Shown: positions 36,538 through 39,318 of the stretch, one piece after another | How the letters are laid out: every line of letters begins with the position of its first letter | Numbering within the stretch: the stretch's first letter is position 1 | Sequence record: PQ390715.1 | Direction: 5' to 3' (one strand) | DNA from: Escherichia phage SHEFM2K | Length of the DNA stretch: 64,000 nt | Translations under genes and position numbers: made by a program | Notes under the pieces: model-generated | Told to the model about the DNA's origin: nothing | What the model saw: only the letters and a program-made list of their open reading frames with translations | Databases searched by the model: none

Positions 36538-36909
36538 TTATGACATACGCTTATTATGAATGGAATTATGAATGGATTTTAAATAATTATATAATTTTAT
36601 CAATCCACTACCAGTAGCTACAAACAATAGTGCTGTTGGTATCATACATCCAAACATGGTTATTAATTCATGTATTTCCATACCATCACTATTTGGTCCC
36701 ACATCAAATATAACAACCAAAACAACACCTAAAATGCTTAGACAATAATATCCCATAAAGACCATAAAAGTGATATATCCGGCACTTGATTTAATATTAC
36801 ATAACATATTATACACTGGATTAATACAGAAGAAGTATAATAACCATACCAGTGTTCCAGTACTGAACATAATAATTGAAATAATGGAAAATATCTCACG
36901 GTAACTCAT
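36538..36909 (-). CDS. Small 3-TM membrane protein, cluster 1 member (123 aa)
   Basis: ORF track; hydrophobic segments, basic C-terminus. Confidence 0.55.
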   Translation of the reverse strand: MSYREIFSIISIIMFSTGTLVWLLYFFCINPVYNMLCNIKSSAGYITFMVFMGYYCLSILGVVLVVIFDVGPNSDGMEIHELITMFGCMIPTALLFVATGSGLIKLYNYLKSIHNSIHNKRMS

Positions 36910-36910
36910 A

Positions 36911-37273
36911 TTATTTCCTCATACCCAAACGTTGGTGGATTTCAGAGATCTTTATATATAATAGTACCACAAGGTGCAGTACTAAACAACATATAATTAC
37001 GGCTAATACCAATGAACATATCATAAGACCGAAGGTTATTGTATTCAAAGAGGATGTGAACAGTCCAATTATTAATACAATAAAACCAAAATTGAATACT
37101 GTACCCAACACAGTATATGCTGGACTATATCTCTTTTGGATTACATCATATATATTTGATAATGGTCGCTTATGGAAGTACTTCCCAATGCACACGAATG
37201 CATTCAGTGAGAAGATAAATGTATACGCCATTACTAGTAATTGACCAACGAAAGATAATTCTATCCCATTCAT
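36911..37273 (-). CDS. Small 3-TM membrane protein, cluster 1 member (120 aa)
   Basis: ORF track trimmed to avoid overlap with upstream gene. Confidence 0.5.
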   Translation of the reverse strand: MNGIELSFVGQLLVMAYTFIFSLNAFVCIGKYFHKRPLSNIYDVIQKRYSPAYTVLGTVFNFGFIVLIIGLFTSSLNTITFGLMICSLVLAVIICCLVLHLVVLLYIKISEIHQRLGMRK

Positions 37274-37274
37274 A

Positions 37275-37643
37275 CTAACCTCGTTTACGTTTTTTAATTG
37301 TACTGTGCATCTTTTCGAAATAGGGAACCAAAACATATTGAACAGTTTGCCAGATAACCATTAGATTATGCACTGCACCACCAAGGATACCAAACACTAG
37401 AACAATAATTGCCATAATAGGATCACCGTCTACCATACCCCATTTAAAGATATGTAAAATCCAAGCAATGACTAGACAAAATAAACTAAGCCAATACGTA
37501 ATGAAAAATCCGGCTTGTAGTTCATAATCATCAGCAATTTCATCGTATACCGTTTCTAAAAATGATACACAAAAGAATTTACCAATTATAACCACAGTAC
37601 TAATAAACAACATAGCAGTTAAGATAATAAGAGCAATTTCCAT
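37275..37643 (-). CDS. Small 3-TM membrane protein, cluster 1 member (122 aa)
   Basis: ORF track; C-term ...KKRKRG. Confidence 0.55.
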   Translation of the reverse strand: MEIALIILTAMLFISTVVIIGKFFCVSFLETVYDEIADDYELQAGFFITYWLSLFCLVIAWILHIFKWGMVDGDPIMAIIVLVFGILGGAVHNLMVIWQTVQYVLVPYFEKMHSTIKKRKRG

Positions 37644-37957
37644 TACATCCCTCGTTTACGCTTTTGATTGCGTCTAAATTCTGTTAGTCCACGGCTAATC
37701 GGCGGCATCAGACTACATAAAAAAGTAACAGTTGTTGGTAGTAACATCAAGTCAATCATTGCAGTGTTATCTGGTGGATCAAAAACCAAAAAATACACAC
37801 AAGAAACACTAATAATGGTTGAACCGATAAAAGGAATACAAAATTCTTTTATCTGTTTTTCAACATAATCAAACATCTTGAGTACAAATAAAAATCCAAC
37901 CCAACACATAATGAAATAGAATGAATACAACGTGTAAATCAATGTTACTATATCCAT
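37643..37957 (-). CDS. Small 3-TM membrane protein, cluster 1 member (104 aa)
   Basis: ORF track; C-term ...RRNQKRKRGM. Confidence 0.55.
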   Translation of the reverse strand: MDIVTLIYTLYSFYFIMCWVGFLFVLKMFDYVEKQIKEFCIPFIGSTIISVSCVYFLVFDPPDNTAMIDLMLLPTTVTFLCSLMPPISRGLTEFRRNQKRKRGM

Positions 37958-38295
37958 TAGTACCTCGCATCAGGAACTTTAGCACGTAACTTATGAACGA
38001 CTGGGAACAACAACAAACTTACATATGCAATAGTTGAACCCCAATAGAATACTAATACAATTGGTTCACCATTAGAACGGAAACCTCTACTAATCATTGA
38101 GTAGTGAATAATAGGCATAATCATCGCCAGACCAAACCATGCGTGTAATTTTAATTGCAGCATGTTATCAGCGATGAATACTGAAATTGGTCGTTTAAAG
38201 AACCACATCAGAAAGTAGAATCCAGCACTAATAATATAGTACATGGTACTAACTTTCATATACCACGGCAGTAAGTGTAAAAAATATTCCATCAT
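37957..38295 (-). CDS. Small 3-TM membrane protein, cluster 1 member (112 aa)
   Basis: ORF track. Confidence 0.55.
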   Translation of the reverse strand: MMEYFLHLLPWYMKVSTMYYIISAGFYFLMWFFKRPISVFIADNMLQLKLHAWFGLAMIMPIIHYSMISRGFRSNGEPIVLVFYWGSTIAYVSLLLFPVVHKLRAKVPDARY

Positions 38296-38639
38296 TCCTC
38301 CGGTATCTTGTTTCGAAGGTCAATCATAACACAACAAAGTTTAATGATCAAGTGAAAAACTACACATATCATACCAATTGTTCCATAAACGACTGAAAAA
38401 GCAGGTAGTGCTTTTCCGGCTAGAACAGCCACAATACATGCAATCAATGTTGATGCAAACAACGATTGATTAATGAAAGAATTCATAAAATCTTCACCAT
38501 TACGCTTATAGAATTGTCGTTTAAAATACCATCCTAGAAACATAACTACCCAAAATGTTACATAACCTGTTAGAATAATCCCTGCAATTGAATGTGCAAC
38601 TGGACTACTCCTTAAAAACTCAAGATAAGCTTCAAACAT
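38292..38639 (-). CDS. Small 3-TM membrane protein, cluster 1 member (115 aa)
   Basis: ORF track; C-term DLRNKIPEE. Confidence 0.55.
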   Translation of the reverse strand: MFEAYLEFLRSSPVAHSIAGIILTGYVTFWVVMFLGWYFKRQFYKRNGEDFMNSFINQSLFASTLIACIVAVLAGKALPAFSVVYGTIGMICVVFHLIIKLCCVMIDLRNKIPEE

Positions 38640-38977
38640 TAGAAGTCTCCGCGAATTTTATCTCTACCATGAATAATGAGATGGATTAAGTATACAACTA
38701 ACCAAATGAACAACCCAAAGAATACAATATATTGTGAGATTGAGTTCAAGTGAGGATTAGCACAATAAATTAAGTGTGCCATAAGACCAACAATTGCAAA
38801 CAAACCTTGAACAAGTGTGTAAAGAACTAGTGATGAATTCCTCACTGGATACAGTTTAAAAACAATTTTCTTTTTAAAATACCATAGTACTACAACTAGT
38901 GCATGATAAAAGAAAAAACCAAACAGATAAATCAAAGTAATACTAAGCATTGTATCTGACTTAAAGAATGTTAACAT
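38639..38977 (-). CDS. Small 3-TM membrane protein, cluster 1 member (112 aa)
   Basis: ORF track; close paralog of 38977-39318. Confidence 0.6.
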   Translation of the reverse strand: MLTFFKSDTMLSITLIYLFGFFFYHALVVVLWYFKKKIVFKLYPVRNSSLVLYTLVQGLFAIVGLMAHLIYCANPHLNSISQYIVFFGLFIWLVVYLIHLIIHGRDKIRGDF

Positions 38978-39318
38978 TAGAAATCCCCTTTAATTCTATC
39001 ACGAGCTTTAATAATAAAGTACATGCTACACACCAACAACCACACGATTAGACCTGAAAACACAAGATATTGTGTAATGTGTGGTGTATTATCAATTTGT
39101 AACATGTAAATCGCATATGTCATCACACCAAATAAAATAAACCCACCTTGGATAATACTATATAAAACTAAGACTACATTATCATCCGAATACAATTTAA
39201 AAACAATTTTCCTTTTAAAATACCACAGACTAATTACAATTGAATGATAACACAAAAATACAAACATGTAAATTAGCGTGATACCAAGCATTGTATCTGA
39301 ATTAAAAAACTCAAGCAT
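38977..39318 (-). CDS. Small 3-TM membrane protein, cluster 1 member (113 aa)
   Basis: ORF track; close paralog of 38639-38977. Confidence 0.6.
   Translation of the reverse strand: MLEFFNSDTMLGITLIYMFVFLCYHSIVISLWYFKRKIVFKLYSDDNVVLVLYSIIQGGFILFGVMTYAIYMLQIDNTPHITQYLVFSGLIVWLLVCSMYFIIKARDRIKGDF

What the first reader, a model, noticed from the sequence alone, without database searches (positions are those of the whole stretch)
36538..39318. Eleven small 3-TM membrane paralogs in two clusters
Eight consecutive genes at 36538-39318 and three at 45364-46399 encode about 105-125 aa proteins with the same layout: TM1, a (W/L)YFK(R/K) turn, two more hydrophobic segments, and a basic tail such as R.(R/D)(K/N).IP(E/N)(R/K) or KKRKRG. 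Adjacent pairs are clearly homologous (e.g. 38639-38977 vs 38977-39318). A large diversified family of inner-membrane mini-proteins may act in superinfection exclusion, membrane remodelling or lysis timing.
Basis: seen in the sequence. Interest (0 to 1): 0.5.

Follow-up and report, generated by a model that had tools for sequence, protein, structure and literature searches.

The report
Jumbo-phage early 3-TM membrane protein family
Eleven small genes in two tandem arrays of a 350-kb E. coli jumbo phage encode one real, ancient family of three-helix inner-membrane proteins, apparently switched on early in infection; no database unites them, and their function, most plausibly blocking or modifying host membrane targets, is untested.

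Summary
The window comes from an Asteriusvirus (121Q/PBECO4-type, RaK2-like) jumbo phage. All 11 minus-strand genes (m1-m8 at 36538-39318, m9-m11 at 45364-46399) belong to one homologous family. In a leave-one-group-out profile test, every ortholog group matches the rest at 89-98% probability (E 2e-6 to 2e-13). Reversed controls reach at most 6.4%, and unrelated small membrane ORFs from the same window at most 3%. Charge distribution predicts 3 TM segments, N-out/C-in, in every member. The family occurs only in RaK2-like phages: 25 representative clusters among 1.84 billion proteins. It matches no Pfam, NCBIfam or PDB family, and PHROGs splits it into at least 7 function-unknown groups. Each paralog has positional orthologs as far as Klebsiella phage RaK2 and is under purifying selection (omega 0.1-0.4), yet single members are lost or frameshifted in some strains. 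Both arrays follow sigma70-type promoters. The phage's T4-type late promoter motif occurs only before structural genes. This suggests early expression and argues against a holin role. The function is unknown. My best guess (about 0.35) is early accessory proteins that act on host inner-membrane targets, for example in superinfection exclusion. TM1 plus the YFK turn form a conserved module, and the TM2-TM3 hairpin is variable.

The parts
38977..39318 (-). m8, first gene of the cluster-1 operon (113 aa, 3 TM); recent duplicate of m7
   Evidence: 54% identical to m7, E 8e-40. Member of group m78, which scores 96.7% in the leave-one-out test. Missing in BF17 and PBECO4, which carry a single m7/8 copy.
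38639..38977 (-). m7 (112 aa, 3 TM, WYFKK turn, RDKIRGDF tail)
   Evidence: Its start codon overlaps the m8 stop (gap -1).
38292..38639 (-). m6 (115 aa, WYFKR turn, RNKIPEE tail); the most central member, linking both clusters
   Evidence: Links m6-m9 at 95%, m5-m6 at 95% and m11-m6 at 84%. Scores 97.8% in the leave-one-out test. The AF2 model has pLDDT 80.7. Deleted to a 90-nt remnant in Salmonella phage SD-1_S14.
37957..38295 (-). m5 (112 aa, WFFKR turn, RAKVPDARY tail)
   Evidence: 95.2%. Overlaps m6 by 4 nt.
37643..37957 (-). m4 (104 aa, no YFK motif, KRKRGM tail); the most divergent member
   Evidence: Leave-one-out 89.3%, E 2e-6, 98 columns, against 0.4% for the reversed control. Split into two ORFs in 121Q (genes 228/229). 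Duplicated in JNE01.
37275..37643 (-). m3 (122 aa, GKFFCV turn, KKRKRG tail)
   Evidence: Links m2-m3 at 94.5% and m1-m3 at 91%. Leave-one-out 98.0%. Distant representatives P0030-32 and P0034 keep GKFFC and the KRG tail.
36911..37273 (-). m2 (120 aa from the ATG at 37273; the longest ORF runs to 37336 and would overlap m3 by 62 nt)
   Evidence: Orthologs in BF17 and ph0011 are 120 aa. 121Q annotates 363 nt. Leave-one-out 94.8%, a local match of 21 columns. m2-m3 matches at 94.5% over 96 columns.
36538..36909 (-). m1, last gene of the cluster-1 operon (123 aa)
   Evidence: Leave-one-out 96.4%, 101 columns. m1 orthologs cross-hit the m3 HMM at 2e-9.
39348..39376 (-). sigma70-type promoter-like site (TTGACA-17-TACTAT) in the 67-nt gap between the NrdC.10-like gene and m8
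   Evidence: Eight of the 17 best minus-strand matches fall in the 6% of sequence that is intergenic (p 2.7e-6).
36510..36531 (.). 9-bp-stem hairpin immediately after the m1 stop; possible end of the operon
   Evidence: The T-run is weak on the minus strand, so terminator function is uncertain.
46061..46399 (-). m11, first family member of cluster 2 (112 aa, AFFRY turn, RSNIPEK tail)
   Evidence: m10-m11 at 98.1% and m9-m11 at 98.0%. Leave-one-out 97.7%.
45710..46051 (-). m10 (113 aa, CFFKY turn, RDNLPER tail)
   Evidence: 96.9%.
45364..45708 (-). m9 (114 aa from the ATG at 45708; the GTG ORF runs to 45732 and would overlap m10)
   Evidence: 121Q annotates 345 nt. m78-m9 at 96% and m6-m9 at 95% link the two clusters. 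Leave-one-out 97.7%.
47134..47162 (-). sigma70-type promoter-like site (TTGACA-17-TATTCT) heading the transcription unit that holds the 137-aa secreted protein, the 93-aa protein and m11-m9
   Evidence: Gene junctions downstream are 1-9 nt.
39386..40156 (-). Conserved upstream neighbour: T4 NrdC.10-type AAA ATPase (context, not a family member)
   Evidence: Pfam AAA hits. Homologs in 1309 phage records. The array follows this gene in every RaK2-like lineage examined but not in T-even phages or PA5oct.

Best explanation
These genes are one ancient, tandemly duplicated family of small inner-membrane proteins (3 TM, N-terminus in the periplasm, C-terminus in the cytoplasm) found only in RaK2-like jumbo phages.

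Shown here:
- All 11 are homologous.
- The topology signal is uniform.
- Each paralog is kept as its own ortholog group, in conserved order, across phage genera, and is under purifying selection.
- The genes form two tightly packed arrays. Cluster 1 is eight translationally coupled genes.
- The N-terminal module (TM1 plus the aromatic-Phe-Lys/Arg cytoplasmic turn) is conserved, while the TM2-loop2-TM3 hairpin changes about three times faster.
- Copy number varies, and single members are lost in some natural strains.

Inferred:
- Host RNA polymerase transcribes the arrays from sigma70-type promoters early in infection.
- The proteins insert into the host inner membrane. Each paralog uses its variable TM2-TM3 hairpin to engage a different membrane target, and the conserved cytoplasmic-face motifs supply a common activity or partner.
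- The most likely outcome is an accessory host-takeover or exclusion function. An example is blocking the inner-membrane step of DNA entry by competing phages, as the early T4 membrane protein Imm does. Silencing particular host membrane proteins is another possibility.

The confidence figure applies to this functional reading. The statement that the genes are one real, early-type, inner-membrane paralog family I hold at about 0.9.
For: Homology.

Topology: with 80 against 10 K+R residues. The AF2 model has three long helices and pLDDT 80.7.

Antiquity and non-redundancy: positional orthologs of every member occur in 121Q, BF17, ph0011, A4, JNE01 and RaK2. A further metagenomic lineage also has the array.

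Selection: gene-wide omega is 0.1-0.4. By region, omega is 0.10-0.15 for N-term/TM1/loop 1 and 0.3-0.47 for TM2/TM3. TM1 is more conserved than TM3 in 10 of 10 groups, p 0.002.

Early-type expression: sigma70-like promoters lie in every minus-strand gap of 57 nt or more, including those heading both arrays. TATAAATA is seven-fold depleted, and its only two copies precede the virion structural genes.

Non-structural: no array protein appears in the phAPEC6 virion proteome (PMC7247149).

Accessory character: losses and frameshifts of m2, m4, m6 and m8 in natural isolates. Cluster 2 has 1 to 4 copies. Identity to 121Q is mosaic, from 85% to 100%.

Context: both arrays lie among other apparently early, host-directed genes, namely a T7 Gp0.7-type kinase as annotated in 121Q, denV, and a hypervariable secreted 137-aa protein in the same unit as cluster 2.
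Against: - No experiment or homology links any member to exclusion or to any host target.
- Expression timing is inferred from promoter motifs only; no transcriptome exists for this phage group.
- Omega never exceeds 1, even in the variable hairpin, so an arms race is not demonstrated.
- Retention of all eight positions in the same order over genus-level divergence, together with translational coupling, fits subunits of one complex at least as well as a battery of independent factors.
- Faster change in TM3 could simply reflect weak constraint on a lipid-facing helix.
Confidence: 0.35

Rival explanations
1. The paralogs are subunits of one hetero-oligomeric inner-membrane complex that the phage needs for its own cycle, for example a channel, a membrane anchor for replication or assembly, or a partner of the adjacent NrdC.10-type ATPase. 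Translational coupling would set the stoichiometry.
For: - Eight genes have stop/start overlaps of -4 to +1 nt.
- Every position is kept as a distinct ortholog group in the same order from E. coli to Klebsiella phages.
- Selection is purifying.
- The cytoplasmic-face motifs are conserved.
- The array always follows the AAA ATPase gene in RaK2-like phages.
Against: - Viable isolates lack or have broken single members: m4 in 121Q, m6 in SD-1_S14, m8 in BF17 and PBECO4, and the m2 frameshift variant P0036.
- Cluster 2 ranges from 1 to 4 copies.
- The ATPase occurs in more than 1300 phage records without such arrays.
Confidence: 0.2
2. They are anti-defence factors. Each paralog would neutralise a different membrane-embedded host abortive-infection or defence effector by helix-helix binding within the bilayer.
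For: The general features are the same as for the best explanation: early-type promoters, a variable TM2-TM3 hairpin, copy-number flux and dispensable members. From general knowledge, several defence systems use inner-membrane effectors.
Against: There is no homology to any known anti-defence protein. PADLOC was not searched, since it holds defence rather than anti-defence proteins. Positional orthologs are kept across phages of different host genera (E. coli, Salmonella, Klebsiella), whereas defence repertoires are strain-specific. Omega is below 1.
Confidence: 0.15
3. They are holins, antiholins or pinholins that control lysis timing for the SAR-type endolysin of these phages.
For: They share the gross layout of class I holins: about 105-125 aa, 3 TM, N-out/C-in, and a basic cytoplasmic C-tail. 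The RaK2 genome paper found no T holin or RI antiholin (PMC3622015), and the endolysin has an N-terminal TM domain (PMC5259590). A holin or pinholin may therefore still be unassigned.
Against: - The arrays have sigma70-type promoters and no T4-type late motif, whereas the late motif marks structural genes in the same window.
- The arrays are more than 300 genes away from the endolysin (121Q gp532 against gp207-232).
- No Pfam holin family matches even at E<=1.
- No member has a dual-start motif (sequences).
- Eleven copies would be unprecedented for a holin.
- fEgEco12 has a holin annotated (PMC13070987), and its cluster-1 genes are all labelled hypothetical, so the annotated holin is not in cluster 1.
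Confidence: 0.07

Closest known systems
T4 Imm (immunity to superinfection; Pfam Imm_superinfect) and other phage inner-membrane exclusion proteins such as P22 SieA and HK97 gp15. Their properties are cited from general knowledge.
   Same: A small phage-encoded inner-membrane protein, not part of the virion, dispensable in single infection, in a region of sigma70-driven early genes of a T4-related phage.
   Different: No sequence similarity: no Pfam hit at E<=1. These proteins have 3 TM segments rather than the 2 attributed to Imm. They occur as 11 paralogs in two arrays rather than as a single gene. An exclusion phenotype has not been tested.
Class I holins (lambda S105 type). Their properties are cited from general knowledge.
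   Same: Length of about 105-125 aa, three TM helices, N-out/C-in, and a charged, basic cytoplasmic C-terminal tail.
   Different: No holin family match. No dual-start motif. Early-type rather than late promoters. Not adjacent to the endolysin. Eleven copies.
PHROGs 27618, 26405, 33258, 27396, 19046, 19454, 19285 (all 'unknown function') and 16874 ('membrane protein')
   Same: These are the same proteins. Each window member hits its own PHROG at E 1e-49 to 1e-70. The exceptions are m2, which has no PHROG of its own (its only hit is 0.046, to m3's phrog_26405), and m9, which hits phrog_19285 only weakly at 3e-4.
   Different: PHROGs does not unite them. The superfamily relationship shown here is not recorded, and no function is attached.
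Other tandem paralog arrays of RaK2-like jumbo phages, such as the RCC1-like array directly upstream in this window
   Same: Tandem duplication and divergence are a general habit of these genomes. The RaK2 paper states that about 10% of its gene products are paralogs (PMC3622015).
   Different: The RCC1-like proteins are soluble, about 380 aa, and partly virion-associated. This family is membrane-embedded, about 110 aa, and absent from the virion proteome.

Membership tests
Single paralogous family (the finding's own claim) | Every member matches a profile built from the other members better than composition-matched controls do | tested here: met
   Leave-one-group-out hhalign gives 89-98% probability and E 2e-6 to 2e-13. 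Reversed controls reach at most 6.4%, and four other small multi-TM ORFs of the window at most 3%.
Single paralogous family (the finding's own claim) | Shared topology: 3 TM, N-out/C-in | tested here: met
   Positive-inside counts are 34 and 46 K+R in loop 1 and the C-tail, against 5 and 5 in the N-terminus and loop 2. The AF2 model has three long helices. This is a prediction only; there is no experimental topology.
Single paralogous family (the finding's own claim) | Shared sequence motifs (the YFK turn and the basic or Pro-containing tail) | tested here: inconclusive
   The Phe of the turn is invariant in 39 sequences. The full motif is present in 7 of 11 members, degenerate in m1-m3 and absent in m4. 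The tail motif varies by subgroup and partly overlaps the next gene's Shine-Dalgarno sequence.
Class I holin | Three TM domains, N-out/C-in, charged C-terminal tail | tested here: met
Class I holin | Sequence membership in a described holin family | tested here: not met
   No Phage_holin or other holin Pfam model matched any of the 11 at E<=1. NCBIfam gave nothing.
Class I holin | Late expression and genetic linkage to the endolysin or lysis cassette | tested here: not met
   The arrays have sigma70-type promoters. TATAAATA occurs only before structural genes. The endolysin is 121Q gp532 (PMC5259590), against array genes gp207-232. Timing is inferred from motifs, not measured.
Class I holin | Forms lethal membrane holes at a programmed time | not testable with these tools
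   Needs expression and lysis assays.
T4 Imm-type superinfection immunity protein | Sequence membership (Pfam Imm_superinfect) | tested here: not met
   No Pfam hit at E<=1.
T4 Imm-type superinfection immunity protein | Small early inner-membrane protein, non-virion | tested here: met
   Timing and location are predicted, not measured.
T4 Imm-type superinfection immunity protein | Blocks DNA entry of superinfecting phage | not testable with these tools
   Needs plating and DNA-injection assays.

The most novel reading that the evidence does not exclude
The eight translationally coupled cluster-1 paralogs, possibly with the cluster-2 members, assemble into one hetero-oligomeric inner-membrane machine unique to RaK2-like jumbo phages. 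It would be built from diverged copies of a single 3-TM protomer, with the conserved TM1/YFK module forming the common core and the variable TM2-TM3 hairpins the specialised periphery. Such a machine would be a new kind of phage-made membrane complex, for example one that gates DNA entry or organises the membrane for a 350-kb genome's replication and assembly.
Probability: 0.15. Interest if true: 0.7.

Novelty: new variant of a known kind. Interest (0 to 1): 0.42.

Why it matters
Most genes of jumbo phages have no known function, and small membrane proteins are among the hardest to annotate. This work joins at least 7 separate "unknown" PHROG families into one family with a defined topology. 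It identifies a conserved module and a variable module, and an apparently early operon. That gives a concrete experimental target: 11 genes of about 110 codons in phages that grow on E. coli K-12.

If the paralogs each block a different inner-membrane route of phage DNA entry, or a different host membrane protein, the array would be a natural toolkit of small membrane-protein inhibitors. It would also show how tandem duplication diversifies a transmembrane binding surface. If they form one complex, that would be a new phage membrane machine. Either way the family is confined to one phage clade, so the general impact is moderate.

Tried and rejected
1. phi92 lead. The ph0011 record labels the m7 homolog "Phi92_gp233" and the ATPase "Phi92_gp231". 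phi92 gp233 is 75 aa and gp231 is 121 aa, and the family HMM finds nothing in that phi92 region at E<=10. The labels are unreliable.
2. Guilt by association with the NrdC.10-type AAA ATPase. The ATPase is in 1309 phage records, but T-even phage RB51 and PA5oct have unrelated genes beside it and no family HMM hits. No functional inference follows.
3. Structure-based annotation. The AF2 model has pLDDT 80.7, but Foldseek finds nothing at E<=1e-3 in PDB or BFVD. A profile search against PDB sequences gives nothing below E 0.33.
4. Curated libraries. Pfam and NCBIfam give no family. PHROGs gives only function-unknown families.
5. IMG/VR scans. The family alignment has no stretch conserved enough to seed a scan, and the single protein P0039 found no relatives.
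6. Positive selection. Gene-wide and region-wide omega are all below 1. Site-level tests were not run because there are too few sequences.
7. Literature. No paper found describes this family or gives transcriptomic or functional data for it.
8. More members in the window. None found. Genome regions outside the window and the fetched loci were not scanned, but all 41 database representatives map to the known array subfamilies.
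Full report
**Source of the window.** The region around both clusters is 96-99.8% identical to Escherichia jumbo phages of the genus Asteriusvirus: BAU.Micro_ELP-22, 121Q, PBECO4 and others of about 350 kb. In the deposited records all the genes in question are "hypothetical protein".

**Checking the observation.**
- The ORF listing shows eight contiguous minus-strand ORFs at 36538-39318 and three at 45364-46399.
- Two ORF calls are over-long. m2 most likely starts at the ATG at 37273 (120 aa) and m9 at the ATG at 45708 (114 aa). Both match the 121Q annotation and orthologs elsewhere. 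With those starts the proteins are 104-123 aa.
- Each protein has three hydrophobic segments. Basic residues are concentrated in loop 1 (34 K+R) and the C-tail (46), against 5 each in the N-terminus and loop 2. This predicts a uniform N-out/C-in topology.
- An AlphaFold2 model of m6, built from a 39-sequence family alignment, has mean pLDDT 80.7. It shows three long helices plus a short helix after the post-TM1 turn.

**Homology or only hydrophobic composition?**
- Simple BLASTP links only some pairs: m7/m8 at 54% identity (8e-40), m10/m11 at 1.5e-9 and m9/m10 at 1.6e-5.
- I therefore collected positional orthologs from 121Q, BF17, ph0011, A4, JNE01 and Klebsiella phage RaK2. I built one profile per ortholog group and compared them with hhalign, using the reversed target alignment as a composition-preserving and TM-pattern-preserving control.
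- Real comparisons have median score 21.6, against 12.6 for the controls (control maximum 20.4). Of 45 pairs, 26 exceed every control (Wilcoxon p 2e-8).
- The strong, mostly full-length links form one connected network. They are m9-m10-m11 (97-98%), m78-m9 (96%), m6-m9 (95%), m5-m6 (95%), m2-m3 (94.5%), m1-m3 (91%), and m2-m6 (72.5%), which is a local match of 36 columns.
- In a leave-one-group-out test every group matches the profile of all the others at 89-98% probability (E 2e-6 to 2e-13). All but m2 (a local match of 21 columns) align over 82-110 columns. This includes the outlier m4 (89%, 98 columns). Reversed queries reach at most 6.4%, and four unrelated small multi-TM ORFs from the same window at most 3%.
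- A family HMM recovers five proteins it was not trained on (RaK2 gp219, gp225, gp226 and gp255, and one JNE01 gene). It hits nothing else among 494 ORFs at E<=10.
All eleven are one family.

**Motifs.**
- The turn after TM1 is [WLCA]-[YF]-F-[KR] in m5-m11, degenerate in m1-m3 and absent in m4. Its Phe is the only invariant column across 39 sequences.
- Distant database representatives keep both this turn and a C-terminal R-x-[KN]-[LIM]-P-x-R. In the m3 branch they keep GKFFC and a KRG tail instead.
- One caveat: in several genes the last codons also encode the next gene's Shine-Dalgarno sequence, for example ccGGAGgaATG = PEE-stop and cGAGGttagtATG = RG-stop. Part of the tail similarity may be nucleotide-level constraint. 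m9 and m11 keep the Pro without that overlap.

**Distribution.**
- A profile search of 5.8 billion proteins gives 21 clusters.
- An exhaustive HMMER scan of 1.84 billion representatives gives 25, all 56-127 aa; most are full-length and three (56, 89 and 99 aa) are truncated or frameshifted variants.
- All map onto the known array subfamilies. Their contigs show the same two arrangements.
- The family is therefore real but confined to RaK2-like jumbo phages.
- Pfam, NCBIfam and PDB sequence and fold searches give nothing.
- PHROGs splits the family into at least 7 function-unknown groups.
- No paper I could find describes it.

**Evolution.**
- The order (m7/8)-m6-m5-m4-m3-m2-m1 is conserved among Asteriusviruses. 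RaK2 has the same set with m6 duplicated, m6 and m78 swapped, and a single m2/m3 gene.
- The array therefore predates the split between the E. coli-infecting and Klebsiella-infecting genera, and each paralog has been kept individually.
- Gene-wide dN/dS is 0.1-0.4. That is purifying selection, but looser than on the NrdC.10-like ATPase or the kinase (0.03-0.13).
- Within ortholog groups TM1 is more conserved than TM3 in 10 of 10 groups (p 0.002), and loop 1 more than loop 2 (p 0.01).
- By region, omega is 0.10-0.15 for N-term/TM1/loop 1 and 0.3-0.47 for TM2/TM3, and never above 1.
- Copy number varies: 7-8 in cluster 1 and 1-4 in cluster 2.
- Single members are broken or lost in viable isolates. 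These are m4 in 121Q, m6 and one m7/8 copy in Salmonella phage SD-1_S14, m8 in BF17 and PBECO4, and the frameshifted variants P0033 and P0036.

**Expression.**
- Junctions within cluster 1 are -4 to +1 nt, which suggests translational coupling.
- Every minus-strand intergenic gap of 57 nt or more in 35.7-48 kb holds a strong sigma70-type promoter match. Eight of the 17 best matches fall in the 6% of sequence that is intergenic (p 2.7e-6). They include TTGACA-17-TACTAT just upstream of m8 and TTGACA-17-TATTCT at the head of the unit that contains cluster 2.
- The T4 late-promoter motif TATAAATA is seven-fold depleted in the window (2 against 14.3 +/- 3.1 expected). Both copies lie directly upstream of the two genes annotated as virion structural proteins in 121Q.
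- I infer that the arrays are early genes. No transcriptome exists to confirm this.
- No array protein is in the phAPEC6 virion proteome (PMC7247149).

**Function.**
- Nothing tested here assigns a function.
- A holin role fits the gross layout, and RaK2 has no recognised holin (PMC3622015). It is disfavoured by the promoter evidence, the distance from the SAR endolysin (121Q gp532; PMC5259590), the lack of any holin-family match, and the copy number.
- Adjacency to the NrdC.10-type ATPase is specific to this clade and carries no functional information.
- The combination of features best fits accessory proteins acting on host inner-membrane targets, such as superinfection exclusion in the manner of T4 Imm (confidence about 0.35). 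Those features are early-type expression, inner-membrane location, non-virion status, a conserved cytoplasmic-face module with a faster-changing TM2-TM3 hairpin, copy-number flux and dispensable members.
- Subunits of one hetero-oligomeric complex is a serious rival (about 0.2), supported by ortholog retention, conserved order and translational coupling.
- Anti-defence (about 0.15) and lysis control (about 0.07) follow.

**Verdict.** The functional interpretation is only partly supported. The family is new in the sense that no database or paper unites or explains it. It is one of many paralog families in jumbo phages and is confined to one clade, so interest is moderate.

Noticed in passing
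window 21291-35853 (+ strand): About 12 tandem paralogs of RCC1-like proteins of about 380 aa lie directly upstream, converging on cluster 1. In phAPEC6 several of these are virion proteins, labelled 'DNA condensation proteins'.
   Followed up: partly
window 46688-47101 (-): A 137-aa protein has a signal-peptide-like N-terminus (MKNIILIVTGIVLMTMSSFASA). It lies in the same transcription unit as cluster 2 and is hypervariable: 42% identical to 121Q while its neighbours are 98-100%, 66% identical to BF17, and absent from ph0011.
   Followed up: partly
window 50527-50534 and 51175-51182 (-): TATAAATA, the T4 late-promoter motif, is seven-fold depleted in the window (2 against 14.3 expected). It occurs only just upstream of the two genes annotated as virion structural proteins in 121Q. 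This suggests that the phage uses T4-type late promoters and avoids the motif elsewhere.
   Followed up: partly
window 40225-41649 (-): A 474-aa ORF between the NrdC.10-like gene and denV has no tblastn match in the corresponding regions of 121Q, BF17 or ph0011. Those regions carry other endonuclease-type genes, so this looks like a variable, mobile-element-type insertion site.
   Followed up: no
window 36909-39000 and 45354-46060 (gene junctions): The C-terminal codons of most array genes double as the Shine-Dalgarno sequence of the next gene (GGAG or GAGG inside PE, RG, GD and AR codons). The protein tail and translational coupling are therefore co-constrained.
   Followed up: yes
window 43609-43860, 54533-54910, 55360-55686, 55744-55986 (-): Four other small multi-TM ORFs (80-125 aa) do not belong to this family: no HMM hit at E<=10 and hhalign probability at most 3%. 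They have no known function either.
   Followed up: yes
L006 (phage ph0011, OP557969) 10769-12284: The deposited record carries 'Phi92_gpNNN' notes on several genes that do not correspond to real phi92 homologs. phi92 gp233 is 75 aa and gp231 is 121 aa, and neither is hit by the family HMM.
   Followed up: yes
L001 (121Q) 13244-13559; proteins P0033, P0036, P0018: Natural frameshifted or truncated versions of m4, m7/8 and m2 occur in deposited genomes and assemblies. It is not known whether these are real pseudogenes or sequencing errors.
   Followed up: partly
L004 (JNE01) 3473-3826; L012 2494-2847: A 117-aa gene sits inside the cluster-2 array of JNE01-like phages but is not hit by the family HMM. 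It could be a very divergent member or an unrelated insertion.
   Followed up: no
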